DNA of 64,000 nt from Gemmatimonadales bacterium (GCA_035759585.1 DASTUP010000187.1:36157-100156); one strand, 5' to 3'; shown: positions 21,503-42,670, counted from the stretch's first letter. Translations and numbers: made by a program. Notes: generated by a model not told the origin, from the sequence alone.

Positions 21503-21515
21503 ACCTTCCGCACGA

Positions 21516-26799: not shown

Positions 26800-27954
26800 T
26801 CATGCATCGGGGGCATGAAGGGAGAGTAACCTCTCCGAGGAAGTGCGGAAACGGCGCTCGTCCAGGAGGCGGGAAATGGGCTGCCGGGGCACCGTCATCA
26901 TGCCGTCGGGCCGCACCGTGAGCTTGATGACATCCGCATTGCGCCCGAACCAGCGCGCGCTGGGCTCGAGGTCGGACGGGAGGTCGAATCCCGGAAGCGA
27001 CGCCGCCGCGAGCGCCGCCTGGCTGCCGATTCCGGACTCGGGCATCGTTCCCGCCCAGAGGCGCACGCCGGCGGCCCGGGCTATGCGCCAGATGCGACAC
27101 ACCTCGGAGAGGCCGCCGACGCGGTGGACCTTCACGTTCCAGATCGTGGGACCGCCAAGCTCGAGAATCTGGCGGGCGGCGCGCGCGTCCCGGAGCGTCT
27201 CGTCCAGACAGATCGGGGTCACGAGCTCCCGGCCGAGCGTCGCGTGGCCGACCAGCTCGTCCGGGGGAAGTGGCTGCTCGATGTAGAGAAGGCCGAATCC
27301 GTCGAGTGTGCGGAGCGCGGCCTCGTCGCGCGGCCATTCGTAGGATCCGTTGGCGTCCACCGTCAGCGGGATGTCCGTGCCCTTCAGCATGTCGGCCACC
27401 GCGGCGACCGGCTCGGCGTCCCAACCCGGCATGACCTTGATCTTCACGCGGCGATACCCTGCCACGGCAGCTTCCGCCACCTGCGCGCGCAGCGTTTCGA
27501 TCGCGCGGTCGGGAGGGATGCCGAGCGCCACGCCGCAGGGCACGGCCGGAACGTGCGGGACACCGAGCGCGTCCGAAAGCACGTCCGCGATCCCGCGACC
27601 TTCACGACGCGCAGCGAGGTCCCACGCGGCGGTCTCGAGTCCCGCACGGGCGAAGGGATTTCCGCGTATGCCCGCGCGCAGCGCGGTGTCGAGCGCTTCG
27701 ATCGAAATGAACGATGGCCCGAGGACGCGCGGGAGCAGCACGTTCTCGAGCAGGTGCCGTGCCGAGCCCAGCGTCTCCTCCGAATAGAACGGCAAGCCGA
27801 ACGGAGGCGATTCGCCGTAGCCGACGTGTCCATCGGCATCGTGCAGCACGACGATGAGCGAGCGCCGCTCCGTCATGGTGCCGCCGGAGATGATGAACGG
27901 CTCGGCGAGCGGAAGCGTGAGCTCGTACAACGCGACCTGCGCGATGCGGATCAC
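26800..27954 (-). CDS. Enolase-superfamily enzyme (o-succinylbenzoate synthase / N-acylamino-acid racemase / dipeptide epimerase-like)
   Basis: 384 aa from GTG 27954 (VIRIAQVALYELTLPLAEPF...). Contains KIKV, TVDANGSY, LLYIEQP and ICLDE (metal ligands and catalytic Lys pattern of the MR/MLE subgroup). Confidence 0.8.
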   Translation of the reverse strand: MIRIAQVALYELTLPLAEPFIISGGTMTERRSLIVVLHDADGHVGYGESPPFGLPFYSEETLGSARHLLENVLLPRVLGPSFISIEALDTALRAGIRGNPFARAGLETAAWDLAARREGRGIADVLSDALGVPHVPAVPCGVALGIPPDRAIETLRAQVAEAAVAGYRRVKIKVMPGWDAEPVAAVADMLKGTDIPLTVDANGSYEWPRDEAALRTLDGFGLLYIEQPLPPDELVGHATLGRELVTPICLDETLRDARAARQILELGGPTIWNVKVHRVGGLSEVCRIWRIARAAGVRLWAGTMPESGIGSQAALAAASLPGFDLPSDLEPSARWFGRNADVIKLTVRPDGMMTVPRQPISRLLDERRFRTSSERLLSLHAPDA

Positions 27955-29081
27955 GGGGCGCGTCCCACGAGGTCCCGGAAGCGCAGCTCGCCGCCGACCC
28001 GCGCAAGCTCGTCCCGCTGTTCGGCCGCCAGAAGCGCAGCAATGAGTCCGTCGGCGGGGTCGAAGACGAGCTTGTGGAGGGTGCGCACCGTGCGCGAGCC
28101 GTCCGACGCCGGATAGGCAGAGAGCGGAAGCTGGAACATCGTGTGCAGCTGCACGGATGAGCAGCCGGCCCTCGCATAGTCGGCGATCAGCGTGCCGGAG
28201 CAGCTGTTGCCGGTCCCGGAGAGGGGAACGCCGGGCCGCGCACGGCGAAGCACGCGAAGGTTCCGGTCGCTCAGCTCCCATCCGCCGTACGCCGCGCCGA
28301 CACCGGGATCCCAGAGTCGATTGAACGCAGTGACGGCATCAGCCGACTGACCCGCGCGCGCGAGCATTCGCACCTGGAACGCATCGTCGAAGCGCGCATT
28401 CATCAGTTTGAGCGCGACGCGCGCCCCACCCGGCGCGGCATCACGGATGCGGCCGGGAACCTCGTCGATCCACCGGAGGATCCGCTCCTGCTCGTCGGCG
28501 AGCGCGTCTCCGGCCAGGGTCGGCGAGAAATCCTTCTCGATGAGCAGGGGCGCGTCCCGCCACGCGCGGGCCAGCAGGCCGATCGTATGCTCGTACTCGC
28601 CACGCGAGAATTCCTCCTCGAGGCGGGGGAGGTGGAGCTTCACCGATGGCACCGTCAGCGGTCCGCCGGAACGGGCGAGGTCGCGCCCGAATTCGAGGAG
28701 TGCCAGGTACTCGCCAAGCGTTCCGTCCCATCCCCGCCCCTTCCAGGTGACGGTCCACCCTTCCCGCCCATCGAACTTCCGGCGCTCCACCTTCATCTTC
28801 GTCTCGTGAATCGCCCAGGCAGCCATGGTCCGCGCGCCGCCGGCGTCCTCGCCGATGACGGTTTTCAGGACCACGAACGCGAGGCCTGCCTCCGCGTCGG
28901 CCTCGAGCTGCTCCGCCTTGAGCGAGAGCTGGCCCGAGGCCTTGCCGATCGGATGCGGAAGCCGCTGACCCAGGTATTCCGTGGCGAGATCGATCCGGTA
29001 TGCCTCGCGCACGTGATCGGCCCAGGCGCGGGGGAGCATGCGACCGAACCGCTCGAAATCAGCTGCCAGCTGCGCGTGCAT
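27951..29081 (-). CDS. Dihydroorotate-dehydrogenase-like TIM-barrel flavoenzyme (specificity unknown)
   Basis: 376 aa. Contains HPIGKASGQLS...FVVLKTVIGED and GTGNSCSGTLIADYARAGCSSVQLHTMF, which resemble DHOD / dihydropyrimidine dehydrogenase PreA-type barrels. Confidence 0.6.
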   Translation of the reverse strand: MHAQLAADFERFGRMLPRAWADHVREAYRIDLATEYLGQRLPHPIGKASGQLSLKAEQLEADAEAGLAFVVLKTVIGEDAGGARTMAAWAIHETKMKVERRKFDGREGWTVTWKGRGWDGTLGEYLALLEFGRDLARSGGPLTVPSVKLHLPRLEEEFSRGEYEHTIGLLARAWRDAPLLIEKDFSPTLAGDALADEQERILRWIDEVPGRIRDAAPGGARVALKLMNARFDDAFQVRMLARAGQSADAVTAFNRLWDPGVGAAYGGWELSDRNLRVLRRARPGVPLSGTGNSCSGTLIADYARAGCSSVQLHTMFQLPLSAYPASDGSRTVRTLHKLVFDPADGLIAALLAAEQRDELARVGGELRFRDLVGRAP

Positions 29082-29937
29082 CGGCTACCGCACGGACAAC
29101 GGCATCCCGCTCGCCGGCGGCGAGCTCGGGCCCCCAGGGATCGTCGCAGGCATCGCCCGGAATTGCCCCTTCCGCTGCCGCCGCCCAGAGCATCCGGCGG
29201 ATATAGCCCTCCAGCGGCTCGACGAACGTTGCCTGCGCAAAGGCGTCGCAGCGCGCCGCGAGTGGCACGAAGTCGTTCCAGCGCCGGTCCCGCGCCGCCG
29301 CCAGAAGATCCGCCTGCATCTGCGTGAGCGCGGCGCCCATGCCGACGAGCGCCGCTTCAGCCCCCATGAGGAGGGAATAGCCGAGGAAGCGGTCTTCGCC
29401 GGTGATGAGCAGCTTGCCGGGATGCTGCTGCACGATCGAGGCGATGCGCTGATACGTCATCACCGAATCGAGCGTCGCGACCTTGATTCCCACCACGTTC
29501 GGCAGGTCGAGGAGCGCATGAAGCGTGACGTCGTCGTAATCCACGCCACCGGCTGAGGCATACAGGTAGAAGAGGATGACCGGGAGCTCCCGGCTGATGC
29601 GCGCGTGGTGCGCGACGGGATCGTCCCGCTCGGGATAGACCAGCAGCGCATCGGCGTGCCCGCGGCGCGCCTCGATGGCAGTGGTGAGGTCGTGCACTCC
29701 GGCCACGACGACGCGGTCGGGCAGCGCCTCGCGCCATGTCTCCAGCACCGCGCGTCGCTGGTCGGCGCTCAGGTGCCTGCCCCGGCCCGTGTGGGCCCAG
29801 ATCGCAACGCCGGCTATTTGCTGTCTCGCCATCCACGTGGCGTAGGCCGACTGGGCGGTCGTGTTGAGCGTGGCGCCGGAGAACGGCACCGGGACCGCGG
29901 GGATGAGCCCGCGGAGGCGTTCGGTGATGGCACTCAT
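29059..29937 (-). CDS. DapA/N-acetylneuraminate-lyase family class I aldolase
   Basis: 292 aa. Contains IPAVPVPF, GVAIWAHTGRG and VVGIKVATLD (candidate Schiff-base Lys). Confidence 0.75.
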   Translation of the reverse strand: MSAITERLRGLIPAVPVPFSGATLNTTAQSAYATWMARQQIAGVAIWAHTGRGRHLSADQRRAVLETWREALPDRVVVAGVHDLTTAIEARRGHADALLVYPERDDPVAHHARISRELPVILFYLYASAGGVDYDDVTLHALLDLPNVVGIKVATLDSVMTYQRIASIVQQHPGKLLITGEDRFLGYSLLMGAEAALVGMGAALTQMQADLLAAARDRRWNDFVPLAARCDAFAQATFVEPLEGYIRRMLWAAAAEGAIPGDACDDPWGPELAAGERDAVVRAVADARAAGS

Positions 29938-30716
29938 CGCGATGGCCTGCGGCGGAGGGCGGAGGCGTTCCCTGATTCGATCGCGTCGCGAGCATCAGCC
30001 GGAATGGGGAGGAGATCGAGCTTTGCGATCGCATTCTCGGGAATCCGGAGCGGCTGCCCGGTCCCGAAGACGAAGCGCGCCGGGCCGATCGTTTCCAGCA
30101 GCGTCTCGAGATGATCCTCCGGCGGCCCCCAGATCCAGGTGATGTCCCACCAGATACGCGCCGCTTCCGCGGGCGTCGCGCCGAAATGCACTTCCTCGAT
30201 GAACGCCCGCTCGGCATGCGTGACGAGCAGCCGCACTGCGGGATCGGCCCGGATCAGCGACCGAACCGCCCAGGGAGGAAGCTCGTCCGCACGGTCGTTC
30301 GGATGCCGCTGGCGGCCATCCTCGAGCCGCACCGTGAGCATGAGGGGAATGCCGGCTGATCCGCACGCCCTGGCGAGCGAGGCCATGGCATCGCCGTGCG
30401 GGTCGAGCCCATACCAGGTCGGGTCGGCACGCACGACAGGGACGCCCTGCCGCGCCGCGCGGTCGAGCTCGGCTTCCCAGTCCGGGAGCCCGGGATGAAT
30501 TGCGGGCACCGGCGCGAGCCGATCATTGCCTGCGGCAATGTCGTAGAGCCAGGTGTTTCCTTCCATCGGATCGCGCCAGAAGAACGATGGGAGATGACTG
30601 ACCCACGCCTGGTCGATGCCGGTGCGCGCCATCGCCGCGAGGACCGCATCCGTCGAGGAGCCGGGCACCCGCCGCCAGGGATACGCGCCGAGAAAGGCGG
30701 AGACATCGATGCGCAA
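29934..30716 (-). CDS. Amidohydrolase-2-like TIM-barrel metal-dependent hydrolase
   Basis: 260 aa. TTG start sits immediately after the upstream TGA. Contains MRIDVSAFLGAYPWRR...AWVSHL...LLVTHA...FVFGTGQP. Confidence 0.65.
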   Translation of the reverse strand: MRIDVSAFLGAYPWRRVPGSSTDAVLAAMARTGIDQAWVSHLPSFFWRDPMEGNTWLYDIAAGNDRLAPVPAIHPGLPDWEAELDRAARQGVPVVRADPTWYGLDPHGDAMASLARACGSAGIPLMLTVRLEDGRQRHPNDRADELPPWAVRSLIRADPAVRLLVTHAERAFIEEVHFGATPAEAARIWWDITWIWGPPEDHLETLLETIGPARFVFGTGQPLRIPENAIAKLDLLPIPADARDAIESGNASALRRRPSR

Positions 30717-31517
30717 TCAGGCCTCCGGGAAGGAGCCGACGGGAAAGATGCGGCGCGCATTGCCCGAGCGGACCAGCTCCAGGTCGGCGCCGGGGAGGAG
30801 ATGCTCGAGATAGCGCAGCTTGGCCCAGCCGGTGTCGATCGTGAGATCGCAGCCCCAGAGGAGCCGCTCGGCGCCGACGGCCGCGAGGCACGCCTCCAGC
30901 ATTCCTCCGTCCACGCCGCTTCCGGAGAGATCCACGTACACGTTCCGGGCCCCGCGCACGGCACGCAGTGAATGCAGCCAGTCTCCACCCCCGCCGATGT
31001 GCGCGAGAATGAACGAGACACCGGCGTGCCGCCGCGCGAGCGTCACCAGCTCGATCGCATCGGACGCTTCCTGGCCGGGGAAGTCCCGTCGCCGGTGCTG
31101 CCAGATGTGCTGCAGAATGGGGAGGCGGTAGTGCGCGGCGCGCTCGCAGATCGGATCGAGCAGCGGATCGTCGGCGCGCCGGCTCGCCGCGAGCTTCACG
31201 CCGATCATTCCCCCGGCCCGGCCGCGGTCGATCTCCTCGAGGGCGTGCGCCGTGAAGTTCGGGTTGACCAGCGCATAACCACGGACCCGATGCGGATGCT
31301 CCGCCGCGATTTGCCGCTGCACCTCGTTGGCGAGCGTCACGTCCGCTGGCGACGGGAAATAGATCGGCGACCGGAGGCCCCAGGTGCCGAGCACCGAGGC
31401 CACGTGCCAGGTTATCCCGGCGCGCTCGCCCGCCCGAAGGCGGCTCGCGTTCCGCTCACGCCAGTCCTTCCGCGGCGTGCGCTCGTGGAGAAAATGGGCA
31501 TGGACGTCGATGAGCAC
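30717..31517 (-). CDS. Amidohydrolase-family metal-dependent hydrolase (start uncertain; a longer form would carry a Tat-like RRRRF motif)
   Basis: Conservative GTG start at 31517 (VLIDVHAHFLH...). Contains LQHIW, ILAHIGGG and LLWGCD. The ORF is open up to 31724 and encodes SPRDRRRRFIGGADCWAAAAPA upstream. Confidence 0.7.
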   Translation of the reverse strand: MLIDVHAHFLHERTPRKDWRERNASRLRAGERAGITWHVASVLGTWGLRSPIYFPSPADVTLANEVQRQIAAEHPHRVRGYALVNPNFTAHALEEIDRGRAGGMIGVKLAASRRADDPLLDPICERAAHYRLPILQHIWQHRRRDFPGQEASDAIELVTLARRHAGVSFILAHIGGGGDWLHSLRAVRGARNVYVDLSGSGVDGGMLEACLAAVGAERLLWGCDLTIDTGWAKLRYLEHLLPGADLELVRSGNARRIFPVGSFPEA

Positions 31518-31820
31518 TCTGGAAGATGGAAAGGCCGGGGCGGGAAGTCGAGGCAAACGGATTGCCGGCGCCGCCGCGGCCCAGCAGTCCGCACCGCCGA
31601 TGAACCGCCGCCGCCTATCTCGAGGCGACGAAAGCCGAGACCGCGTCGGGCGATGCGGGCGAGCATGCGCGCGCGACGTGCACACTCGAGGCCCGCTTCG
31701 CGAAGCTCGAGACCGATCCGGCATTCCTCCTCACGACTGAGCAGCAGCCGAATACGAAGCCTGGAAGGAAGCCGAAGTGGCAAGCATACGGAGGAGAATG
31801 ATGGGGCGACGGCCGTAGGC

Positions 31821-33008
31821 TCAGCGTTTTCCGGCGGGGTCCCTTGCCAGCGCGCGCAGGACCTCGTCGAGGACGTCGAGCGTTTCCGCCACGATTCGTT
31901 CGTCGTGCGCGAGTGACACGAAGTCGTACGCCGTGCGCTTGAGCAGCACGCCTCGGCGCGCGCACCCTGCGGCCACGGCGGCGGAGGCCTGGTCATCGCG
32001 CATCTGGAGGAAGCACATCTCGGGAATCCCGGCCGCGCCCTTCACCAGCGCCGGATGCAGTTCCGCCGCGCGGCGGAAGCCGTCGAGCAGCACGTTCCCC
32101 ACGCGCCCGATATGCTGGGGAACCCGCTCCCGGGCGAGCACGCCGAAGGTGGCGCGGCAGGCGGCGAGCGAAACGAATTCCGTCGCCAGCGTCGAGCTGA
32201 TCCAGGTATGGAGTGCTGCGCCCATCAGGTCCGCCCGGCCCCCTACCGCTGCGATCGGGAATCCGTTCCCGATGGCCTTCCCCATGACGACGAGATCGGG
32301 CCGGACACCCCATCGTTCCACCGCTCCGCCGAGTGCGATGCGGCCGATCGTCTTGATCTCGTCGAAGATCAGGACGGCACCGGTGCGTTCTGTCTCCGTG
32401 CGGAGGATCCTGAGCCATTCCGGATCCGGTGGCGCCGCGATGACGGGCTCGATGATCACGGCGGCGAGACGCGCGTCCATGCCACGCACCAGCTCGACCG
32501 CGCGCTCCATGTCGTTGAAGGGGAGCTCCGCAAAGTCGCCGCTCACGGCACCGGGAACGCCGCGCGTGCCGTGCGGCTGGCACCAGTCGAGCCATCCGTG
32601 GTAGCCGCAACCGAGCACGAATTCACGCCCCGTGTGCGCGCGGGCAAGCCGCACGGCTGCCGCTGCGGCCTCGGCGCCGGTCTTGAGGAACCTCACCTGC
32701 TCGATCCACGGCAGGTGCTGAGCGATCGTCTCGGCTACTTCCTCCTCGAGCACAGGCGGGAGCGGGCCGACGACGCCGTCCCCGACCGCTTCACAGGCGG
32801 CGTCCGTCACCTCGGGATGCGCGTAACCGAGCGCGACGGCGCCGAGTCCCATGACATAGTCGACGTAGGCGCGGCCGGAGTCGTCCTCGACCTGGCAGCC
32901 GCGCGAGCGGACCATCCGGAGCGGAAGTCCCCGTTCGCCCGCGTGCGCGCCGAAGACCGCGTCGGGTCGCTTGCTGCCGGTGGACGTGACACCCGGAATG
33001 CGGCTCAT
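31821..33008 (-). CDS. Class-III PLP aminotransferase (glutamate-1-semialdehyde aminomutase-like)
   Basis: 395 aa from ATG 33008. Contains YVDYVMGLGAVALGYAHP, FLKTGAEA, LIFDEIKTIGR and VMGKAIGNGFP (PLP lysine). Confidence 0.85.
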   Translation of the reverse strand: MSRIPGVTSTGSKRPDAVFGAHAGERGLPLRMVRSRGCQVEDDSGRAYVDYVMGLGAVALGYAHPEVTDAACEAVGDGVVGPLPPVLEEEVAETIAQHLPWIEQVRFLKTGAEAAAAAVRLARAHTGREFVLGCGYHGWLDWCQPHGTRGVPGAVSGDFAELPFNDMERAVELVRGMDARLAAVIIEPVIAAPPDPEWLRILRTETERTGAVLIFDEIKTIGRIALGGAVERWGVRPDLVVMGKAIGNGFPIAAVGGRADLMGAALHTWISSTLATEFVSLAACRATFGVLARERVPQHIGRVGNVLLDGFRRAAELHPALVKGAAGIPEMCFLQMRDDQASAAVAAGCARRGVLLKRTAYDFVSLAHDERIVAETLDVLDEVLRALARDPAGKR

Positions 33009-35722
33009 GCGAGCTCGAGCACGCCGAACCGCTCGGGCGCCTGGCGGTCTCCCCGCAGCCAGACCCAGCCACCGCCTCCGGTCCATACGAGCTGGCCGGC
33101 CCGGCGCTCGCGCCCGCTTCGCATTTCGTTCACGAGGAGGTCAAAGTCGACGATTCCGAGGTCACGCACCTCGTCCCAGAACGGAGGCGAGAGCGCGAGC
33201 GTGATGCGATAGCCGGTTGCAGTCCCGCTCCACCCCGCCCGTACGTCGTCGGGACTCCCGGCGGTATCCGACACGGGGCTCACGCGCACGCCTCCTCCGA
33301 CCTCAGGCACCGCAAGCACGCCCCACGCCGGCCCGCCGGCCGCGCGCAGGTACACCTGGATGCCGTCGGAGTGAATGTCGTCGACCTCGTTGTCGAACCG
33401 GAGCGGCGGAGCGGCGGCGGGACGAAAGGCGGGGTCCGCCTTGACGACGTCGACCGCGACGTAAAGCGCGTCCTCGTCCCAGAGCAGCCGCGCCGACGCG
33501 CTGAACTCCTCGAGCCCCGCGTACGGCTCCTCGCTGCGGCGATACTGGTCGTCGTGATCGAGATGGATCATGGCCGAGCCGGCGAAATCGGCATCCGATC
33601 CATCGACGGCCGGCGCGTGAGCGGCGAACGGAACCGTCGCATGTTCCCGCAGCGCGCGCTGGCGCGTGATCAGGGGCTCGAACTCGCGTTCAGGTGCGCG
33701 AATGCCGCCGAGGCGAACCGAGCCGGCGGCGCTGCGAATATCCCACCCTTCGAGGAGCGCGGAGTGGACATCGGTGCCGGCCTCCGTATCGACTTCAATC
33801 GAGGTGCCACTTACGCGGATCCCACGAATGGCATCTGCGCGAAAGCCGATCACGGCCACGAGCTGCGCGCCCGGCGCGCGAACCCGCTCCAGCAGGAAGG
33901 TTCTCCTGGAGTGCCCGCCGGGAACGGGGGGACATTCGCCGCGAAGGAGCGCCGCGCCCGGGGCGAAGTGGAGCGTCAGGGTCCGGCCGTCGCGCTCGCC
34001 GCGCACAGCGAGCGGCCCGCTCGCCGACGGGACGAAACGCTCGACGCTCGAGACGAACGAGCTCTCGATCGCATCGGGCACCCAGGCGCCGGGCGAAACG
34101 ACGTCGGCGCGATCGAGGTGCCACGGGAGCTCGAGGGTCCGCTCGCCCTCCGCATTCAGCTCGAGCACGTCGATGACGTAATCCGGGCCCGACACGGCGG
34201 TACGCGTGACCGGTCCCCAGGTGCCGCGAACCCAGGACCAGTCCTCGCCCGCCTGGAAGGCGGTGCAGCTCGCGTCGCCGCCGGGCTGTGAAGTGCCGTC
34301 GAGCAGCGGTGCGTTGTGCGCGAGCGTGGACCGGTACCAGAAGAGATCACCCGAGACGTAGGAGCCGGTTCCGAAATCGGGAAGCCAGTGAACGCCTCCG
34401 GCGTGGATCGAAAGGTGGAGGCGGTCGGGGTGGCCGTGCCCGCCAGTCCAGTCGCCGCACTCGAGACTCACGTACCGGTCGCCGCGGCGCAGCACGGCCA
34501 GGCCGGCATACGGCAGGAACGCACTCACCGCGCGCACTTCTCCGCCTTCCGGCAGCGCGGGCGTCATCTCGAGGAGCGCATTCCACGAAAGATCCGCACG
34601 GGTACGCCGGGCGCGAGCCGGAAGGCCCGCCTCATAGAGCCACGAATCGAAGGCGTTCGCCGCCGGGGCCGGCGCGGCGTAGAGCGACCTGATCCACCCG
34701 CCGACATCGACGAGCGCTTCGCCCGATTCGCTCATGATCCCGAGTCCCCGCTCCCACAGCTCGATGTACATCGGCTGAGCGAGCGAGACCGCAAAGCGGG
34801 AATCCTTGCGCGCCGGAAACGTCAGGTCGGGCAACGCCGTGCGGATCGGTGCCCGGAGCGCCGCGGCGATCCGCCCGGCGAGCTCGGGATCACCGAGGGG
34901 ATCGACGCCGGCGGAGCGCGCCCAGCGCAGCCCGGTGAGCGCGCCCTGCAGCGCAAAGAGGTGGTAATTCTCGCCTTCGTGCCACGTGCCGTCGCTCGCA
35001 AAGCCATGCGCGAAATGGGCGAGCAGGCCCGACTCGCTCTCGATGGCACGTCCCGCCAGCTCTTCGTCCTCGAACCAGACGCCGATCGCCGCGAGCGCTG
35101 CGTTGTGCCAGGTCTGCCGGTTGGAGAATCCTTCATTGAACTCTCCGATGATGGCCGCCGCTTCGTCCGCCACCGAGGACACGACCTCGATCGTTCCCTC
35201 CCCGAGTCGCCCGCTCTCCCGGAGCAGGACGGCAGCGGCGAGGTAATTCGTGATCCAGATCGACTCGAGATAGGTGGAGAAGAAGAGGTGGGACGGACCG
35301 AGGACGTTGTCCAGATTCGGCAGCGAGGCATAGTGCGCATAGGCCGCGAGGATGTCGTCCGCACGGGCGGAGGCCGCCTCGTCCGGCGCCATGACCCCGA
35401 TGGCCGCAAGCTCGGCAGCCTGCTCGGCCAGCCACAGGTGCTGGAAGCGGGCCCAGTGCCGGTTGTGCCGCTCACCGGAAAACGTGCGGCGGCACTGCGG
35501 GCACAGATGATCCGCCGGCGCCCACGGATCGAAGAGCAGCTGCGTGCCATCCTCGGGGCAGACACCGCCGTCCTGCGAGAGCAGCGCCTTGACCTGCGGC
35601 ACGTGCGGCATTTCCAGGACGGTGCGGGCGCCTCGCCGCTGCATGGCGGCGAGGAGCGATTCGAGATCGGCGTTTCCCGCAACCATCGCTGCCCGCGTTT
35701 CCAGCTCTTCCGTCGTCACCAC
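33005..35722 (-). CDS. Heparinase II/III-like (alpha/alpha-toroid lyase fold) protein with N-terminal Cys4 ribbon and C-terminal CBM9/DOMON-like domain
   Basis: About 905 aa from GTG 35722 (or 35719). Contains CPEDGTQLLFDPWAPADHLCPQCRR, NRQTWHNAA, DGTWHEGENYHLFA, GHGHPDRLHL and YRSTLAHNAPLLDG. The C-terminal part has LLWDEDALYVAVDVVKADP...DDIHSDGIQVYL. Confidence 0.75.
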   Translation of the reverse strand: MVTTEELETRAAMVAGNADLESLLAAMQRRGARTVLEMPHVPQVKALLSQDGGVCPEDGTQLLFDPWAPADHLCPQCRRTFSGERHNRHWARFQHLWLAEQAAELAAIGVMAPDEAASARADDILAAYAHYASLPNLDNVLGPSHLFFSTYLESIWITNYLAAAVLLRESGRLGEGTIEVVSSVADEAAAIIGEFNEGFSNRQTWHNAALAAIGVWFEDEELAGRAIESESGLLAHFAHGFASDGTWHEGENYHLFALQGALTGLRWARSAGVDPLGDPELAGRIAAALRAPIRTALPDLTFPARKDSRFAVSLAQPMYIELWERGLGIMSESGEALVDVGGWIRSLYAAPAPAANAFDSWLYEAGLPARARRTRADLSWNALLEMTPALPEGGEVRAVSAFLPYAGLAVLRRGDRYVSLECGDWTGGHGHPDRLHLSIHAGGVHWLPDFGTGSYVSGDLFWYRSTLAHNAPLLDGTSQPGGDASCTAFQAGEDWSWVRGTWGPVTRTAVSGPDYVIDVLELNAEGERTLELPWHLDRADVVSPGAWVPDAIESSFVSSVERFVPSASGPLAVRGERDGRTLTLHFAPGAALLRGECPPVPGGHSRRTFLLERVRAPGAQLVAVIGFRADAIRGIRVSGTSIEVDTEAGTDVHSALLEGWDIRSAAGSVRLGGIRAPEREFEPLITRQRALREHATVPFAAHAPAVDGSDADFAGSAMIHLDHDDQYRRSEEPYAGLEEFSASARLLWDEDALYVAVDVVKADPAFRPAAAPPLRFDNEVDDIHSDGIQVYLRAAGGPAWGVLAVPEVGGGVRVSPVSDTAGSPDDVRAGWSGTATGYRITLALSPPFWDEVRDLGIVDFDLLVNEMRSGRERRAGQLVWTGGGGWVWLRGDRQAPERFGVLELA

Positions 35723-36717
35723 CGGCGCACTCCTTCCGCGCTCCACGAGAATGCAAGCGGCTGCGCGCCGATCGAGCGCGCGGCCTCGGCCACCGCGTCC
35801 GCGCGGCCCGGTGCTATGAAGAACATCGATCCCCCTGCGCCCGCCCCGGCCGCCTTCCCGCCGATCGCGCCGCTGCGGCGAGCCGCGGCCTCGAGCTCGG
35901 CCATGCGCCCGGTGCGCATACCGGCATCGAGCGCCTGCTGGTGCCTCCAGTTCACGTCGAGCAGCATCGCGACGCGGCCGAGATCGGCAGCCGCGAGCGC
36001 CTCCCGCATTGCGAATGCGGCATCCCTGAGCCCCGCGAGGGCGCCGGTGATGGCGCGCTCGCCGCGCTCGCACGCGCTCATGACCCGCGCGATCGTTTCG
36101 CCCGAGACGCGCGAGGTTCCGGTGTAGCAGAGGACCACGCTGCGACCCAGCTCCTCCATGAACGCCACGTCGAGGGCGAGCGGCTGCGCGACGACGCCGT
36201 CCGGGCCGAACGTCATCGCCTGAAATCCGCCGAGCGCTGCCGCATACTGATCCTGACGGCCGCCCGGGTGGCCCGCCTCCACCGCTTCCATGCGCCACGC
36301 ACGCTCGGCGATCTCCAGCTCCGAGGGTGCTTCACCTCGCGCGTATGCGAGCGAGGCGACGATCGCCACGCCCAGCGCGCCGGACGAGCCGAGGCCCGAG
36401 CCCTGCGGCACTTCGGAGCGGGTCACGAGCGTCGCGGGGCCTACCGGCATCGCGCGCACACCGGCTTCGAGAAGGGGGAGGTCCCCGTTGCCGATGCGCG
36501 CTCCATCCGGCCGGAGCTCGACCTGCGTGCCGAGATCTTCCGAGAGCAGGTGCACGGCATCGCCGCCGGGCAGCACGTTCACATGCACGCGGAGCGAGAT
36601 CGACGCCGTGACGACCGCACCTCCCTCACGTTCCGAGTAAGGCGGAACGTCGGTCCAGCCGCCCGCGAAATCGAGCCGGACCGGTGCTGCGGCGTGGGCC
36701 CGCCGCATCACGCTCAC
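35716..36717 (-). CDS. GHMP-family sugar kinase
   Basis: 333 aa, GTG start. Contains PVRLDFAGGWTDV, PQGSGLGSSGALGVAIV and GGKAAGAGAGGSMFF. Confidence 0.85.
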   Translation of the reverse strand: MSVMRRAHAAAPVRLDFAGGWTDVPPYSEREGGAVVTASISLRVHVNVLPGGDAVHLLSEDLGTQVELRPDGARIGNGDLPLLEAGVRAMPVGPATLVTRSEVPQGSGLGSSGALGVAIVASLAYARGEAPSELEIAERAWRMEAVEAGHPGGRQDQYAAALGGFQAMTFGPDGVVAQPLALDVAFMEELGRSVVLCYTGTSRVSGETIARVMSACERGERAITGALAGLRDAAFAMREALAAADLGRVAMLLDVNWRHQQALDAGMRTGRMAELEAAARRSGAIGGKAAGAGAGGSMFFIAPGRADAVAEAARSIGAQPLAFSWSAEGVRRW

Positions 36718-38159
36718 TCGATGCGCCAGTCGGCGAGCCCGGCGAGCTCACCACGGAGATCCATGCGCACGTTCCGGATGCGGCGGTTCATTCCCTGCAG
36801 GCCCCGTGCATGATAGAGAAAGACCACCGGGAGCGAGTCGGCGAGCAGCTGCTGCGCCGCCTCGGGACGCGGCGGCGCAGGCATTCCCGCAAGCTCGGCG
36901 AGCGGCGGAAGGTAGCCGAGCGAAAGGTCACCCGGAATGCCGAGCACGGCGGCTTCGAACTGGGGCCGCGGCCCGTATACGCGATCGAGGAACGCGGAGA
37001 GCTCGAGCTGGCGAATCGTCACCTCGAATCCGGCGCGGGCAAGCTGGGCCTGGATCATCTGCTCGAGTGCCGCCTCGCCGCTGCCTACCGTGAGGAGCTC
37101 GAAGCTCGGCCGCGCACCGTCCAGCAGCGCAGCAGCCGAGTCGGCATCGACCGGCGGGGCGTCGGCGACGATCGCGCCCGGTGCGTCAGGAGGCACGCCA
37201 CTGCCGGCCGGGGTGCCGAACCCGTAGAGGTAGCCATCCACGATCTCGATCCGGTCGAGCGCGAGGGAGAGTGCCCGGCGAATGGCGAGAGCGTCGAACG
37301 GCGGATTTCGAGTATTGAGCACGATTCCGTAGGTGAACAGCAGCGGATAGCTGAGGACCGCGAGCCGCTCGTCCTCCTCGACGAACGATGCGTGCGCCGG
37401 CTGGATCCCTGCAAAGTCCAGCTCCCCGGAGGTGAGTGCGGCGAGCTTGGTCGTGGGCTCATCGACGACGACCACGATGAACCGCTCGGCGTCCGGCCGC
37501 CCGAGCCCTGCCGGAAACTTTTCGTTGCGCTCGAAGACCCAGCGGCGGTTCGGCTCGTGCGCCACGAAGCGGAACGGCCCGTTCCCCACCGGCCGTTCGT
37601 TGAATTCCGCCTGGCGGAGCCGCGCGGGAGGAATCGAATCGAGCAGGTGTGCCGGCAGGATGGCCAGATCGGTGAGGACGTCGGGAAGCGTGACGGCCGG
37701 AGCGGCGAAGCGTATGACGAGCGTCGTGTCGTCCGGTGCATCGACGCTGCGGATGGCCGCGAGCTCCGTGAGCCGCGGGTAGCCGGTGGCCGGATCGAGT
37801 GCCGTCCGAAGCGTCCACTCGGCGTCCTGCGCCCTCGTCGGGGTCCCGTCGTGCCACGCGATGTCGGAGCGGATCCGGAAGGTGAGCGTCATCCGGTCCG
37901 GCGACCAGGTCCACTCTCGCGCGAGGTAGGGTCGCGCGACGAGCGCGGAGTCGTACTGCGCGAGGGTGGTGAACAGCACGTAGCGCTGCACCTGGCGCGC
38001 CAGCGGATGGACGGTCAGCAGCGGGTTGATGCTCTGCAGGTCGGCGCCCGACGCGAAGAGAACGGTGCCTCCGCGGCGCTCGGCCACGGATCCGCACGCC
38101 GCTGCCACGAGGACGAGCCAGGGAAGCCAGGAGCGGGGAGAGCGATGATGGGGAAGCAC
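36714..38159 (-). CDS. ABC transporter substrate-binding lipoprotein, family 5 (peptide/nickel/oligosaccharide type)
   Basis: 481 aa from GTG 38159. VLPHHRSPRSWLPWLVLVAAACGS carries a lipobox. Contains WHDGTPTRAQD, GNGPFRF and LNTRNPPFD. Confidence 0.8.
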   Translation of the reverse strand: MLPHHRSPRSWLPWLVLVAAACGSVAERRGGTVLFASGADLQSINPLLTVHPLARQVQRYVLFTTLAQYDSALVARPYLAREWTWSPDRMTLTFRIRSDIAWHDGTPTRAQDAEWTLRTALDPATGYPRLTELAAIRSVDAPDDTTLVIRFAAPAVTLPDVLTDLAILPAHLLDSIPPARLRQAEFNERPVGNGPFRFVAHEPNRRWVFERNEKFPAGLGRPDAERFIVVVVDEPTTKLAALTSGELDFAGIQPAHASFVEEDERLAVLSYPLLFTYGIVLNTRNPPFDALAIRRALSLALDRIEIVDGYLYGFGTPAGSGVPPDAPGAIVADAPPVDADSAAALLDGARPSFELLTVGSGEAALEQMIQAQLARAGFEVTIRQLELSAFLDRVYGPRPQFEAAVLGIPGDLSLGYLPPLAELAGMPAPPRPEAAQQLLADSLPVVFLYHARGLQGMNRRIRNVRMDLRGELAGLADWRIE

Positions 38160-38176
38160 CCGGTCAATGTACCGGG
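38159..38176. promoter_or_regulatory. Inverted repeat in the 46-bp divergent control region
   Basis: CCCGGT-CAATGT-ACCGGG (6-bp arms) between the SBP GTG (38159) and the permease ATG (38206). TATGAT lies at 38193..38198, 7 nt before the permease ATG. Confidence 0.35.
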
Positions 38177-38205
38177 CAACTTGGCGCCGCGGTATGATTG
38201 TCACG

Positions 38206-42659: not shown

Positions 42660-42670
42660 GGCCGCCCGAT

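What the first reader, a model, noticed from the sequence alone, without database searches (positions are those of the whole stretch)
26800..38159. Nine-gene, start/stop-overlapped enzyme operon that does not map to a pathway I recognise
From the SBP gene (GTG 38159) down to the enolase gene (stop 26800), the junctions are as follows. GTGA at 36717/36714, at 35719/35716 and at 27954/27951. ATGA at 33008/33005 and at 29937/29934. TGA directly followed by TTG at 30719..30714. A 23-nt overlap at 29081/29059. One gap of at most 300 nt at 31518..31820. The encoded set is: family-5 solute-binding lipoprotein, GHMP sugar kinase, heparinase II/III-like lyase-fold protein with a CBM9-like tail, HemL-like class-III aminotransferase, two amidohydrolase-fold enzymes, DapA/NAL-type aldolase, DHOD-like flavin TIM barrel, and an OSBS/NSAR/dipeptide-epimerase-like enolase. 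It combines polysaccharide-lyase, sugar-phosphorylation, transamination, C-C cleavage, ring or amide hydrolysis and epimerisation chemistries. It is flanked by Dpp-type permeases and a GH38 mannosidase. A plausible reading is import and stepwise breakdown of a glycosylated or aminated oligomer (glycopeptide, amino-sugar acid or uronate-type polymer). However, the specific combination is not one of the textbook routes (alginate, heparin, hydroxyproline, murein-peptide recycling, pyrimidine reduction). This is the best candidate in the window for an undescribed metabolic system.
Basis: partly seen in the sequence, partly recalled or inferred. Interest (0 to 1): 0.65.

Follow-up and report, generated by a model that had tools for sequence, protein, structure and literature searches.

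The report
Conserved uncharacterised catabolic gene cluster
A soil Gemmatimonadales bacterium carries nine tightly packed genes for taking up and breaking down an acidic, nitrogen-containing sugar or glycopeptide fragment, and the last three enzymes form a module shared by several bacterial phyla whose chemistry has not been described.

Summary
Nine minus-strand genes (26800-38159) have exactly the start/stop junctions reported and the stated families. The window comes from a soil Gemmatimonadales MAG.

The cluster is conserved well beyond chance. In 80 species-level loci the gene order is never broken: 23 hold g1-g9, 61 hold g5-g9 and 69 hold g7-g9.

It is composite rather than one fixed operon.
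- **Front end (optional):** SBP, diverging DppBC permeases, an HddA-like kinase, a PL17-like lyase with a CBM9 tail, a class-III aminotransferase and a nearby GH38.
- **Back end:** an amidohydrolase-2 pair plus a triad of DHDPS-like lyase, orphan DHOD-like FMN enzyme and NSAR/OSBS-like enolase.

Orthologues of the triad (36-45% identity) occur in Kosmotoga, Paenibacillus, Neomoorella, Wansuia and Acidobacteria. There they sit beside heparinase/C5-epimerase-like proteins, sugar importers and GFO oxidoreductases, or beside M20D aminoacylases.

No characterised pathway matches. The oxidative uronate route (Gli/Gci/KdgD) is closest by fold set, but no orthology was detected.

Most likely function: import and cytoplasmic breakdown of an acidic, aminated glycan or glycopeptide, ending in pyruvate. 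The substrate is unknown.

Interest is moderate to high. It is a new variant of a known kind.

The parts
36714..38159 (-). g1: family-5 (Opp/Dpp/Nik-type) solute-binding lipoprotein. The N-terminus VLPHHRSPRSWLPWLVLVAAAC carries a lipobox.
   Evidence: Pfam SBP_bac_5, 226 bits. The nearest solved relatives bind peptides, nickel/metallophores, agropinic acid and mannosides, so the ligand class is open. Syntenic in 26 of 80 loci.
35716..36717 (-). g2: GHMP kinase, closest to the HddA/WcbL heptose-7-phosphate kinases and fucokinase. Probably an anomeric sugar kinase. PQGSGLGSSGA motif present.
   Evidence: 4n3o 1.5e-38, 3k85, 4usk. GTGA overlap with g1 and g3.
33005..35719 (-). g3: 904-aa cytoplasmic protein with no signal peptide. 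It has an (alpha/alpha)6 toroid plus beta-sandwich polysaccharide-lyase fold, closest to the PL17 exo-oligoalginate lyases, and a C-terminal CBM9-like domain from about residue 700.
   Evidence: Pfam Hepar_II_III_C. Relatives carry PF05426 and PF06452. AF2 model pLDDT 83.5. Foldseek matches PL17 structures 7bjt/4ok4 at E about 1e-22, TMt 0.67-0.72, and CBM9 structures 7nwn/1i82. Invariant motifs: N200-R-Q-x-W, W246-x-E-G-x-N-Y-H and H428-G-H-P-D.
31821..33008 (-). g4: class-III PLP aminotransferase resembling glutamate-1-semialdehyde aminomutase. The PLP lysine lies in VMGKAIGNG.
   Evidence: PDB relatives include HemL, the C-6' sugar aminotransferases (7lld) and beta-transaminases. Mutually exclusive with the DAO insert in relatives.
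31518..31820 (-). The only real intergenic gap in the cluster (303 nt). Relatives show either no gap (7 nt in L082) or an inserted opposite-strand gene here. It is a possible internal promoter.
   Evidence: No promoter-like, terminator-like or Rfam match.
30717..31517 (-). g5: 266-aa metal-dependent amidohydrolase-2 enzyme. It keeps HxH (DVHAHF), His137, His173 and Asp224 (numbering of the 266-aa form), and belongs to the ACMSD-type decarboxylase/hydratase branch.
   Evidence: Pfam 72.7 bits. Invariant columns. A profile search of the PDB gives ACMSD at 2e-9, then gamma-resorcylate decarboxylase and LigJ.
29934..30716 (-). g6: 260-aa divergent amidohydrolase-2 paralogue that lacks the HxH motif (IDVSAF). 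Probably a non-canonical enzyme or a partner subunit of g5. Starts at a TTG directly after the g5 stop.
   Evidence: Pfam 37.7 bits. No PDB sequence hit. Conservation. A 23%-identical homologue sits next to a g5 homologue in the distant locus L096.
29059..29937 (-). g7: divergent DHDPS/NAL-family class-I (Schiff-base) lyase. The lysine lies in VVGIKVA, and an unusual HTGRG replaces the GxTGE motif.
   Evidence: best hit an N-acetylneuraminate lyase at 5e-8. Orthologues at 36-48% identity in five other lineages.
27951..29081 (-). g8: orphan DHOD/DPD-fold TIM barrel. It keeps the FMN-phosphate motifs (GTGNxxSG ... VQLHT) but not the DHOD catalytic Cys/Ser loop.
   Evidence: No Pfam hit and no PDB sequence hit. 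AF2 pLDDT 88.8. Foldseek matches DPD and DHODH at E about 1e-11, TM about 0.6. Only 273 representatives in 1.84 billion proteins. Distant members reach PF01180.
26800..27954 (-). g9: enolase-superfamily enzyme of the NSAR/OSBS subfamily. By inspection it has KIK 171-173, D200, E226, D251, K275 and an R278 equivalent to R266 of the Amycolatopsis enzyme.
   Evidence: TIGR01928 at 224.7 bits against a cutoff of 200.65. PDB hits 3mwc at 1.7e-86 and the N-acylamino acid racemases at 1e-60 to 1e-69. 43% identical to the Kosmotoga olearia orthologue, which sits next to that genome's g7 and g8 orthologues.
38206..40007 (+). Two Dpp/Opp-type ABC permease genes (DppB-like 38206-39180, DppC-like 39177-40007), diverging from g1 across 46 nt or less. 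No ATPase gene is nearby.
   Evidence: Pfam BPD_transp_1. Translation. Same arrangement in L082 and L083 and in about 25 loci. No LSGGQ signature anywhere in the window.
40008..42986 (-). GH38 alpha-mannosidase. The true start is probably about 100 codons downstream of 42986, and no signal peptide is evident. It is a likely accessory of the front-end module.
   Evidence: Pfam GH38 N, middle and C domains. It lies next to the cluster at one end or the other in relatives: 8 of 20 loci with g4 against 0 of 10 without.

Best explanation
This is a catabolic locus of soil Gemmatimonadales built from two modules.

**Front end (inferred).**
- The lipoprotein SBP g1 and the diverging DppBC permeases import an acidic oligomer. 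Their ATPases are encoded elsewhere. The oligomer is a uronate- and mannose-containing oligosaccharide or glycopeptide.
- In the cytoplasm the PL17-like exo-lyase g3 (with a CBM9 tail) and the neighbouring GH38 take it apart.
- The HddA-like kinase g2 phosphorylates a released sugar, probably at C1.
- The HemL-like aminotransferase g4 converts an amine to a carbonyl, or the reverse, on a released unit.

**Back end (inferred).**
- The amidohydrolase-2 pair g5/g6 removes an acyl or amide group, or opens, decarboxylates or hydrates a ring.
- The NSAR/OSBS-like enolase g9 abstracts the proton alpha to a carboxylate of an N-acyl-amino-acid-like intermediate, giving epimerisation or beta-elimination.
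- The FMN enzyme g8 performs a DHOD-like redox step next to that carboxylate.
- The DHDPS-like lyase g7 forms a lysine Schiff base with the resulting 2-oxo (4-hydroxy/3-deoxy) acid and releases pyruvate or an equivalent small product.

**Leading substrate guess.** An N-acylated amino-sugar acid or a lyase-derived unsaturated uronate. I put this at about 25-30%.

**Shown:** the gene set, folds, conserved catalytic motifs, synteny and cross-phylum co-occurrence.

**Inferred:** every reaction, the order of steps and the substrate.
For: **Synteny.** Gene order is collinear in 80 of 80 species loci, and translational coupling is confirmed.

**Lyase.** g3 has a PL17/PL15-type exo-lyase fold plus CBM9, with invariant His/Tyr/His motifs, and no signal peptide.

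**GH38.** It tracks the front end: 8 of 20 loci against 0 of 10. It directly follows g9 in L082 and lies beyond the permeases in L083 and in the window.

**Triad contexts in other phyla.** Orthologues of g7, g8 and g9 at 36-48% identity sit in:
- Kosmotoga: a sugar ABC importer, a C5-epimerase-like 614-aa protein and GFO oxidoreductases.
- Paenibacillus: Hepar_II_III, a sugar ABC importer, GFO and AP_endonuc_2.
- Pyrinomonadaceae: a TonB receptor, NagC-like ROK, GNAT, NagB-like, SSF and 2-Hacid_dh.
- Anaerobic Firmicutes: an M20D aminoacylase, an Nramp-like transporter and a dedicated wHTH regulator.

**Extended core.** A compact GFO-AH2-AH2'-AT3-g8-g9-g7 operon in a GC-46% metagenome contig shows that g4-g9 travel together outside Gemmatimonadales.

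**Amine removal.** The aminotransferase and a Tat-exported DAO-type oxidase are mutually exclusive (DAO in 13 of 13 loci without g4 against 2 of 39 with it). This points to an amine-removal step.

**Enzyme motifs.**
- g9 is above the cutoff for the NSAR/OSBS model and keeps both catalytic lysines and the R266 equivalent.
- g7 keeps the Schiff-base lysine, and its nearest relatives are sialate lyases, DHDPS and KDG aldolases.
- g8 keeps the FMN-binding motifs of DHOD.

**Possible substrate source.** Gemmatimonas proteins carry O-glycans with a Man-GlcA-Rha core (PMC8849296), so such a substrate exists in this phylum.
Against: - No enzyme has been assayed, and no substrate can be named from sequence.
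- Family-5 SBPs usually bind peptides, opines or metals. The nearest solved relatives of g1 are not sugar binders.
- g3 is far from any characterised lyase: 16% identity, and the NCBIfam oligoalginate-lyase model scores 20 bits against a cutoff of 1400. The same fold also gives C5-epimerases (6hzn).
- The usual downstream enzymes for unsaturated uronates (KduI/KduD or DehR, KdgK, Eda) and for uronate oxidation (Udh, KGSADH) are absent from the cluster.
- g1-g4 are absent from a quarter of informative loci. Housekeeping-type genes interrupt the cluster in some relatives. The two modules may therefore not share a substrate.
- Many genomes carry the triad alone, with no carbohydrate genes nearby.
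- In anaerobic Firmicutes its partners (M20D aminoacylase, Nramp-like transporter) look like amino-acid metabolism rather than sugar metabolism.
Confidence: 0.45

Rival explanations
1. Amino-acid or peptide salvage rather than sugar-acid catabolism.
- The Dpp-type importer brings in cell-wall- or protein-derived peptides or N-acyl-D-amino acids. Examples are muropeptides carrying meso-diaminopimelate, or hydroxyproline-rich glycopeptides.
- g5/g6 hydrolyse the amide bond. M20D does this in Firmicutes.
- g9 epimerises the N-acylated residue.
- g4, or the DAO variant, removes the amine.
- g8 oxidises the resulting N-heterocyclic carboxylate. That would be tetrahydrodipicolinate (DapB in reverse) or D-hydroxyproline.
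- g7 opens and cleaves it, either to pyruvate plus aspartate semialdehyde (DapA in reverse) or as a pyrroline-4-hydroxy-2-carboxylate deaminase.
For: - g1 and the permeases are of the Opp/Dpp type.
- Known NSAR/OSBS and dipeptide-epimerase substrates are N-acylated amino acids. Known contexts pair the racemase with an M20 deacylase (PMC12006748), as seen in L087-L089, L094, L095 and L110.
- The exclusivity of aminotransferase and DAO fits removal of an alpha-amine.
- DHOD and DHDPS both naturally handle six-membered N-heterocycles with an alpha-carboxylate (established enzymology).
- g8 has lost the DHOD Cys/Ser base loop. That would suit C-N rather than C-C oxidation, but this is an inference.
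- A PepX-type S15 peptidase lies in the acidobacterial locus.
Against: - g7 scores 25.9 bits against the dapA cutoff of 206 and lacks the aspartate-semialdehyde-binding Arg motif.
- No proline-racemase-type epimerase, KGSA dehydrogenase, DapD-like acyltransferase, MpaA or LdcA is present.
- This reading does not explain the PL17-like lyase with CBM9, GH38, the sugar-1-kinase-like g2, the CUT1 sugar importers, the GFO and AP_endonuc_2 partners in Kosmotoga and Paenibacillus, or the NagB/NagC-like genes.
- The DapA reaction is strongly biased towards synthesis (general knowledge).
Confidence: 0.2
2. The back end is a variant of the oxidative hexuronate pathway.
- A uronate, or the lyase product, is oxidised to an aldarolactone.
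- The lactone is isomerised or opened by the amidohydrolases g5/g6 (Gli-like).
- It is converted by the enolase g9 (Gci-like) to 5-keto-4-deoxy-aldarate.
- That product is dehydrated and decarboxylated, or cleaved, by g7 (KdgD-like).
- g8 and g4 replace uronate dehydrogenase and 2-ketoglutarate-semialdehyde dehydrogenase.
For: - The characterised Agrobacterium route uses the same three superfamilies: amidohydrolase Gli, enolase Gci and DHDPS-family KdgD (PMC6353982).
- A uronate-releasing lyase fold is encoded upstream.
- GFO oxidoreductases accompany the triad in L084, L085, L089 and L096.
- 2-hydroxyacid dehydrogenases recur in four loci.
Against: - No orthology was detected. Sequence searches of the PDB with g5 (as a profile), g7 and g9 listed no chain named as Gli, KdgD or Gci, within limits of 0.01, 0.01 and 1e-20 respectively. 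I assume from memory that these three enzymes have solved structures, and the 1e-20 limit used for g9 would miss a distant Gci match.
- g9 belongs to the NSAR/OSBS subfamily. g5 is closest to the ACMSD-type decarboxylases, not to lactone-acting members.
- Udh and KGSADH are absent.
- M20D aminoacylases, a GNAT, NagB-like deaminases and the aminotransferase/DAO step all point to nitrogen, which this route lacks.
Confidence: 0.12
3. There is no single pathway. Conserved synteny has juxtaposed two or three independent units that act on unrelated substrates: an importer with kinase, lyase and aminotransferase; an amidohydrolase pair; and the triad. The tight spacing reflects genome compaction in this lineage.
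For: - g1-g4 are dispensable.
- The triad occurs alone in many genomes.
- Unrelated genes are inserted at four junctions in relatives: a SpoU/TrmJ-like gene, a Yip1-like membrane protein, PilZ and the Tat-DAO.
- The same-strand overlapping run in the window continues into clearly unrelated genes, a Na+/H+ exchanger and a histidine kinase.
Against: - Lyase-fold proteins, importers and the g7/g8 pair are linked independently in three phyla through non-orthologous components.
- The g4-g5-g6 homologues are fused into one compact operon with the triad in L096.
- GH38 follows the front end wherever it sits.
Confidence: 0.15
4. A biosynthetic or salvage role, for example a cell-envelope sugar, a metallophore or dipicolinate-like chelator, or a non-canonical diaminopimelate/lysine branch, rather than catabolism.
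For: - The cluster is present in hundreds of Gemmatimonadales species: 382 genomes hold a g8 relative.
- HddA-type kinases and C-6' sugar aminotransferases are typically biosynthetic.
- The g1 relatives include nickel/metallophore binders.
- An Nramp-family transporter neighbours the triad in Firmicutes.
Against: - There is no nucleotidyltransferase, glycosyltransferase, exporter or acyltransferase.
- The locus has an importer-type SBP, a lyase with a CBM and a glycoside hydrolase.
- Dedicated substrate-type regulators (wHTH, LacI, NagC-like) accompany the triad elsewhere.
Confidence: 0.05

Closest known systems
Oxidative D-galacturonate/D-glucuronate pathway of Agrobacterium tumefaciens (Udh, Gli, Gci, KdgD, KGSA dehydrogenase)
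   Same: It combines an amidohydrolase-superfamily enzyme, an enolase-superfamily enzyme and a DHDPS-family enzyme to convert a uronate-derived sugar acid into a central metabolite (PMC6353982). In the window a uronate-releasing lyase fold sits upstream.
   Different: - No orthology was detected.
- The enolase here is of the NSAR/OSBS type.
- Udh and KGSADH are missing.
- An orphan FMN enzyme, an aminotransferase (or a DAO) and, in other phyla, M20D aminoacylases are added.
N-succinylamino acid racemase operons for D- to L-amino acid conversion (Geobacillus type), and the DgcN/DgcA N-acetyl-D-glutamate system
   Same: g9 belongs to the NSAR/OSBS subfamily, with both catalytic lysines and the R266 equivalent. 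Firmicute orthologues sit beside M20D aminoacylases, and the acidobacterial one lies near a GNAT. These are the partners of the known pathway (PMC12006748).
   Different: - No acyltransferase or M20 enzyme is in the window.
- The invariant partners here are a DHDPS-like lyase and a DHOD-like flavoenzyme, which are not reported among the contexts that paper lists.
- Carbohydrate-active neighbours are present.
Cytoplasmic oligo-uronide utilisation (PL17/PL15 exo-lyases with DEH reductase, KdgK and KdgA; alginate and pectin type)
   Same: g3 has the PL17 two-domain fold, has no signal peptide and lies next to an importer. This is the usual logic of importing an oligomer and then applying an exo-lyase.
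   Different: - Identity to PL17 enzymes is about 16%, and g3 has an extra CBM9 tail.
- The importer is of the Opp/Dpp type rather than CUT1, TonB or MFS.
- None of DehR, KduI/D, KdgK or Eda is present.
- The downstream enzymes are entirely different.
Dihydroorotate / dihydropyrimidine dehydrogenase family (PF01180)
   Same: g8 shares the TIM-barrel fold and the FMN phosphate-binding motifs. Distant members of its family reach the Pfam threshold.
   Different: - g8 itself matches neither Pfam nor any PDB sequence.
- The catalytic Cys/Ser loop and two of the pyrimidine-binding Asn residues are not conserved.
- It forms a small separate family (273 representatives) that nearly always sits next to a DHDPS-like gene.
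Sialic acid (Nan) and hydroxyproline (Hyp) catabolic clusters
   Same: Both use a DHDPS-family enzyme as the committed lyase or deaminase, together with an epimerase, a kinase or flavin dehydrogenase, and a deacetylase or deaminase. The acidobacterial locus (NagC-like ROK, DHDPS-like, NagB-like, SSF transporter) looks Nan-like. The DAO variant recalls D-hydroxyproline dehydrogenase.
   Different: - g7 is far below the NanA cutoff (27 against 281 bits).
- No NanE/NagA, proline-racemase-type epimerase or KGSA dehydrogenase is present.
- The DAO is Tat-exported.

Membership tests
Polysaccharide lyase, PL17 / heparinase II/III-like (g3) | Two-domain fold: an (alpha/alpha)6 toroid plus an antiparallel beta-sandwich | tested here: met
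   AF2 model pLDDT 83.5. Foldseek matches PL17 structures 7bjt/4ok4/4nei at E about 1e-22, TMt 0.67-0.72. PL39, PL40, PL15, PL12 and PL33 rank lower.
Polysaccharide lyase, PL17 / heparinase II/III-like (g3) | Sequence membership: family HMM at its curated threshold | tested here: not met
   The NCBIfam oligoalginate-lyase model scores 20.1 bits against a cutoff of 1400. Only the generic Hepar_II_III_C Pfam passes (47.9 bits). No CAZy/dbCAN model was available.
Polysaccharide lyase, PL17 / heparinase II/III-like (g3) | Catalytic Tyr/His (and Asn) placed as in Alg17c or heparinase II; beta-elimination activity | tested here: inconclusive
   The invariant NRQxWH, WxEGxNYH and HGHPD motifs look like the family motifs, but they were read by eye and not superposed. 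The same fold also gives C5-epimerases (6hzn). Activity cannot be tested here.
NSAR/OSBS subfamily of the enolase superfamily (g9) | Family HMM above its cutoff, and catalytic KxK, D-E-D metal ligands, second Lys and R266 equivalent | tested here: met
   TIGR01928 at 224.7 bits against 200.65. PDB N-acylamino acid racemases at 1e-60 to 1e-69. K171/K173, D200, E226, D251, K275 and R278 read from the sequence and conserved in 65 orthologues.
NSAR/OSBS subfamily of the enolase superfamily (g9) | A biological context that assigns function: a menaquinone operon (OSBS), or a succinyltransferase plus M20 desuccinylase (NSAR) | tested here: not met
   No men gene, GNAT or M20 gene lies in the cluster. 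M20D appears only next to the Firmicute orthologues.
Dihydroorotate dehydrogenase family (g8) | TIM-barrel fold with FMN phosphate-binding motifs | tested here: met
   Foldseek matches DPD and DHODH at E about 1e-11. The GTGNxxSG...VQLHT stretch was compared with a DHOD motif recalled from memory, by inspection only.
Dihydroorotate dehydrogenase family (g8) | PF01180 at threshold, and the catalytic Cys/Ser loop (N-x-S-C/S-P-N) | tested here: not met
   No Pfam hit. The only NCBIfam hit is 26.5 bits against a cutoff of 303. The loop reads VPSVKLHLP. Only relatives at 30% identity or less reach PF01180.
Oxidative hexuronate pathway (Udh-Gli-Gci-KdgD-KGSADH) | Amidohydrolase, enolase and DHDPS-family enzymes encoded together | tested here: met
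   g5/g6, g9 and g7 are adjacent. The pathway composition is taken from PMC6353982.
Oxidative hexuronate pathway (Udh-Gli-Gci-KdgD-KGSADH) | Orthology to Gli, Gci and KdgD; presence of uronate dehydrogenase and KGSA dehydrogenase | tested here: not met
   PDB sequence searches listed no chain named as any of the three, within E-value limits of 0.01, 0.01 and 1e-20. That these enzymes have solved structures is from memory, and the 1e-20 limit could hide a distant Gci match. A g7 orthologue hits the KdgD model at only 7.5e-6, below dapA and NAL. No SDR-type Udh or ALDH lies in the cluster.
DapA/DapB (diaminopimelate pathway) | DapA equivalog score, the aspartate-semialdehyde-binding Arg and the GxTGE motif; an NAD(P)H DapB | tested here: not met
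   TIGR00674 at 25.9 bits against 206. HTGRG replaces TTGE, and no 'PGRT' Arg is present. No DapB homologue is present.
Sialate (Nan) cluster | NanA equivalog, NanK/NanE, NagA/NagB | tested here: not met
   The NAL model scores 27.3 bits against a cutoff of 281. No ROK, NanE, NagA or NagB lies in the window. NagB-like and NagC-like genes occur only in the acidobacterial locus.
Opp/Dpp-type ABC importer | A family-5 SBP, two permeases and two ATPases | tested here: inconclusive
   The SBP and both permeases are present. No ABC ATPase signature occurs anywhere in the 64 kb or next to the cluster in L082 and L083.

The most novel reading that the evidence does not exclude
The DHDPS-like lyase, the orphan DHOD-like FMN enzyme and the NSAR/OSBS-like enolase form a previously unrecognised catabolic module. 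It is shared by Gemmatimonadota, Thermotogota, Bacillota and Acidobacteriota. It would define a new route, including a new flavoenzyme reaction, from an N-acylated or heterocyclic sugar-acid or amino-acid carboxylate to pyruvate. The Gemmatimonadales locus would be its most elaborate form, coupled to a new lyase subfamily for an acidic glycan or glycopeptide.
Probability: 0.45. Interest if true: 0.75.

Novelty: new variant of a known kind. Interest (0 to 1): 0.6.

Why it matters
Gemmatimonadales are among the most abundant soil bacteria, and few have been cultured. This locus is present in hundreds of their species, so it probably marks a substrate that matters for their niche and for soil carbon and nitrogen turnover.

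The triad gives a functional context to three things:
- An orphan flavoenzyme family.
- A structural-genomics enolase of unknown function (3MWC).
- Many genes that automatic annotation would call 'o-succinylbenzoate synthase', 'dihydrodipicolinate synthase' or 'hypothetical'.

Because the triad also occurs in cultured organisms (Kosmotoga olearia, Paenibacillus macerans, Neomoorella glycerini, Wansuia hejianensis), the question can be tested directly in the laboratory.

Tried and rejected
- **PDB sequence searches** with all nine proteins. g6 and g8 found nothing. g3 and g5 gave only weak hits.
- **AFDB fold search.** The library was unavailable.
- **Plasmid collection**, tblastn with g8: no match.
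- **Rfam and promoter/terminator scans** of the cluster. Nothing was found except a sub-threshold ftsZ-DE hit outside it.
- **Literature.** Ten searches were attempted, one of them rejected for a formatting error, on combinations of heparinase, GHMP kinase, aminotransferase, DHOD-like, DHDPS, NSAR, Kosmotoga and unsaturated uronates. None found a description of this gene set.
- **True MenC (menaquinone).** Rejected because of the context, and because orthologues sit in the same triad in lineages with unrelated neighbours.
- **Reductive pyrimidine catabolism.** Rejected: no PydB/PydC, and g8 lacks the catalytic loop.
- **The 439-aa protein downstream of g9** as the counterpart of the roughly 437-aa protein next to the triad in other phyla. 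Rejected: there is no similarity, and the latter is a wHTH regulator.
- **P0283 (648 aa)** as an informative g7-g8 fusion. Rejected: it is a frameshifted mistranslation.
- **Neighbours of the high-GC loci that hold only the triad.** They were Ser/Thr kinases and MacB-like permeases, which are uninformative.

Full report
**Source and observation**

The window has about 70% G+C. It comes from a soil Gemmatimonadales metagenome-assembled genome. The g8 and g3 proteins are 100% identical to NCBI entries named 'MAG TPA... Gemmatimonadales bacterium' on a 101-kb contig. An 8.8-kb farmland contig carries g5-g9 identically.

- GTGA at 36717/36714, 35719/35716 and 27954/27951.
- ATGA at 33008/33005 and 29937/29934.
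- TGA-TTG at 30719-30714.
- A 23-nt overlap at 29081/29059.
- A single 303-nt gap at 31518-31820.

The short g5 (GTG 31517, 266 aa) and the long g8 (ATG 29081, 376 aa) are the forms supported by conservation. No terminator-like or promoter-like site and no Rfam element lies inside the cluster.

The same-strand run continues past 26800 into a 439-aa membrane protein, a Na+/H+ exchanger and a hybrid histidine kinase. These vary among relatives, so I treat them as separate.

**What each gene is**

- **g1** is a family-5 solute-binding lipoprotein. Its nearest solved relatives bind peptides, Ni/metallophores, agropinic acid or mannosides, so the ligand class stays open.
- **Permeases.** Two Dpp-type permease genes diverge from g1 across at most 46 nt. 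No ABC ATPase is encoded anywhere in the 64 kb.
- **g2** is a GHMP kinase closest to the HddA/WcbL heptose kinases and fucokinase.
- **g3** (904 aa, no signal peptide) models with pLDDT 83.5. It superposes best on the PL17 exo-oligoalginate lyases (E about 1e-22, TMt about 0.7). PL39, PL40, PL15, PL12, PL33 and dermatan-sulfate epimerase rank lower, and the tail matches CBM9. Relatives carry the Alginate_lyase and CBM9 Pfam domains. The His/Tyr/His-type motifs are invariant.
- **g4** is a HemL-like class-III aminotransferase.
- **g5** is a complete metal-dependent amidohydrolase-2 enzyme of the ACMSD-type branch.
- **g6** is a divergent paralogue without the HxH motif.
- **g7** is a divergent DHDPS/NAL-family Schiff-base enzyme.
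- **g8** has no Pfam or PDB sequence match, but it folds as a DHOD/DPD-type FMN barrel.
- **g9** scores above the curated cutoff of the NSAR/OSBS model, and its best PDB match is 3MWC.

**Co-conservation within Gemmatimonadales**

A scan of one genome per species found 382 genomes with a g8 relative. The best 80 are all Gemmatimonadales or Gemmatimonadota MAGs.

tblastn with the window proteins shows that gene order and strand are never violated (0 of 80). All of g1-g9 are present in 23 loci, g5-g9 in 61 and g7-g9 in 69. Most of the shortfalls are contig ends. Median identities are 54-70%.

The cluster is nevertheless modular.
- Of 52 loci with enough upstream sequence, 39 have g4 (usually with g1-g3 and the diverging permease) and 13 do not.
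- All 13 that lack g4 carry a DAO-family oxidase between g7 and g8. That gene occurs in only 2 of the 39 loci with g4.
- The oxidase has a twin-arginine signal (RRSFLE/K) in nearly every complete copy.
- A GH38 lies next to the cluster only when the front end is present (8 of 20 against 0 of 10). It sits either after g9 or beyond the permeases, as in the window.
- Relatives also show unrelated insertions: a SpoU/TrmJ-like gene between g3 and g4, an opposite-strand Yip1-like or Spy-like gene in the g4/g5 gap, and PilZ between g6 and g7.

**The triad crosses phyla**

g8 defines a small, sharply bounded family. An exhaustive HMMER scan of 1.84 billion representatives gives only 273 hits, about two dozen of them full-length clusters. 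The most distant members just reach the DHO_dh Pfam model.

A search from a 43%-identical member brought in cultured organisms. Their contexts are informative.
- **Kosmotoga olearia:** regulator, DHDPS-like, g8-like and enolase, followed by two permeases, a CUT1 SBP, a 614-aa C5-epimerase/heparinase-like protein and two GFO oxidoreductases. A GH114+CBM9 galactosamine-type operon lies upstream.
- **Paenibacillus macerans:** Hepar_II_III, a CUT1 importer, GFO, AP_endonuc_2, regulator, g8-like and DHDPS-like.
- **A Thermoanaerobacteraceae genome, Wansuia and Neomoorella:** enolase, DHDPS-like, g8-like, an Nramp-related transporter, the same roughly 437-aa wHTH regulator and an M20D aminoacylase.
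- **A Pyrinomonadaceae MAG:** a TonB receptor, NagC-like ROK, DHDPS-like, g8-like, GNAT, NagB-like, SSF transporter, AP_endonuc_2, 2-hydroxyacid dehydrogenase and enolase. A metagenome contig repeats this arrangement.

The g7, g8 and g9 proteins are 36-48% identical to these partners, which is the level of orthologues.

A metagenome scan added three things:
- Low-GC M20D-g7-g8-g9 operons.
- Many high-GC loci with the triad alone.
- A GC-46% contig with a compact GFO, AH2 (39% to g5), AH2' (g6 homologue), AT3 (39% to g4), g8, g9, g7 operon set among housekeeping genes.

So g4-g9 form an extended core that exists outside Gemmatimonadales. The SBP5, kinase and lyase genes are lineage-specific additions.

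**How it most likely works**

The recurring partners indicate a carboxylate substrate that is sugar-derived and carries nitrogen.
- Lyase or epimerase folds, importers and GFO/AP_endonuc_2 enzymes point to carbohydrate.
- M20D or AH2 hydrolases, a GNAT, NagB-like deaminases and the aminotransferase/DAO alternation point to an N-acyl group and an amine.
- The NSAR/OSBS enolase points to a proton alpha to a carboxylate in an N-acyl-amino-acid-like molecule.
- The DHDPS-like enzyme points to a 2-oxo-3-deoxy (4-hydroxy) acid that ends as pyruvate.

I therefore propose the following sequence.
1. Import of an acidic oligosaccharide or glycopeptide.
2. Cytoplasmic depolymerisation by the PL17-like lyase and GH38.
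3. Phosphorylation of a released sugar by g2.
4. Conversion of the acidic, aminated unit through deacylation or ring chemistry (g5/g6), alpha-proton chemistry (g9), amine removal (g4, or the periplasmic DAO in the variant), an FMN-dependent redox step (g8) and Schiff-base cleavage (g7).

An N-acetylated amino-sugar acid or an unsaturated uronate is my leading substrate guess. O-glycans with a Man-GlcA-Rha core on Gemmatimonas proteins show that such material exists in the phylum. Every reaction here is inferred and none is shown.

**Rivals**

- **Amino-acid or peptide reading.** Muropeptide DAP handled by a reversed DapB/DapA logic, or hydroxyproline-type imino acids. This explains the Dpp-type importer, the M20D/NSAR pairing and the aminotransferase/DAO alternation well. 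It does not explain the lyase, GH38 or the sugar-type neighbours elsewhere. g7 also fails the DapA and NanA models.
- **Variant of the oxidative uronate pathway.** It shares the fold set with Gli/Gci/KdgD, but no orthology, no Udh/KGSADH and no place for nitrogen were found.
- **Unrelated modules.** This cannot be excluded, but the independent re-association of lyase folds with the g7/g8 pair in three phyla, and the L096 operon, argue against it.
- **Biosynthetic role.** This is unlikely.

**Comparison with known systems, and novelty**

The published contexts of NSAR/OSBS enzymes that I could find are menaquinone operons, the D-amino-acid conversion operon and a Listeria cell-wall operon (PMC12006748). 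None includes a DHDPS-like or DHOD-like partner.

No paper in the searchable library describes this gene set. That library is incomplete, so a description elsewhere cannot be ruled out.

The locus is a catabolic gene cluster, which is a known kind. It uses an undescribed enzyme combination, an orphan flavoenzyme family and a distant lyase subfamily. I rate it a new variant of a known kind, with interest 0.6. The most useful practical result is that the core can be studied in cultured Kosmotoga, Paenibacillus, Neomoorella and Wansuia strains.

Noticed in passing
window 21576-26769 (- strand): The overlapping same-strand run continues beyond g9. It holds a 439-aa membrane protein with no Pfam hit (30 nt after the g9 stop), a Na+/H+ exchanger (junction at 25450) and an 843-aa HAMP-PAS hybrid histidine kinase (4-nt overlap). 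The 439-aa protein and the exchanger follow g9 in only a subset of relatives (L001-L003, L038, L046, L065, L068, L083). There the 439-aa protein is unusually conserved, at 72-91% identity.
   Followed up: partly
window 38160-38205; whole window: The SBP gene and the first permease gene diverge across at most 46 nt (40 nt in L083, 173 nt in L082). This suggests leaderless or overlapping divergent promoters. No ABC ATPase gene (LSGGQ signature) occurs anywhere in the 64 kb, so the importer must borrow its ATPases from elsewhere.
   Followed up: partly
L031 8658-9989 and 18 other loci (between g7 and g8): A DAO-family FAD oxidase with a twin-arginine export signal is inserted into the back-end module in exactly those genomes that lack g1-g4 (13 of 13 against 2 of 39). 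It may be a periplasmic replacement for the cytoplasmic aminotransferase step.
   Followed up: partly
window 26800-27954: g9 passes NCBI's equivalog cutoff for 'o-succinylbenzoate synthase' (TIGR01928) and would be annotated as MenC. Its conserved context in five lineages has nothing to do with menaquinone synthesis, so this is a probable systematic misannotation. It also covers the family of PDB entry 3MWC.
   Followed up: partly
L084 942-7554 (Kosmotoga olearia CP001634): Directly upstream of the Kosmotoga triad operon lies a GH114 (endo-alpha-1,4-polygalactosaminidase family) protein fused to CBM9, followed by GFO, SIS, BadF/BadG-type kinase and GatZ/KbaZ-like genes. This looks like a galactosamine-polymer utilisation operon. 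Like g3, it uses a CBM9 module.
   Followed up: no
L084 7734-9056, L085 8567-9895, L087 12792-14105, L088 7553-8857: A protein of about 437 aa with no Pfam family accompanies the triad in Thermotogota and Bacillota. It has a weak GGDEF/GdpP-like middle region and a C-terminal winged helix. It is probably the dedicated regulator, and it is absent from Gemmatimonadales.
   Followed up: partly
window 21477-21555 (+): A weak match to the ftsZ-DE sRNA model (32 bits against a gathering score of 72, E = 0.012), between the histidine-kinase gene and the upstream + strand gene. Probably chance.
   Followed up: no
window 1040-2641 (+); 43305-46202 (-); 46332-47390 (+): Other genes in the window include a UbiA prenyltransferase with an N-terminal region that hits PNPOx below threshold, aconitase, and a response regulator with an HD-GYP-type HD_5 domain. 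The last of these is also next to GH38 in L083. Two tandem glyoxalase/dioxygenase-fold genes lie at 2645-4573.
   Followed up: no
protein P0283 (database entry, 648 aa): A public protein prediction that looks like a g7-g8 fusion is in fact a frameshifted, low-complexity mistranslation of the two adjacent genes. It should not be read as evidence for a fusion.
   Followed up: yes
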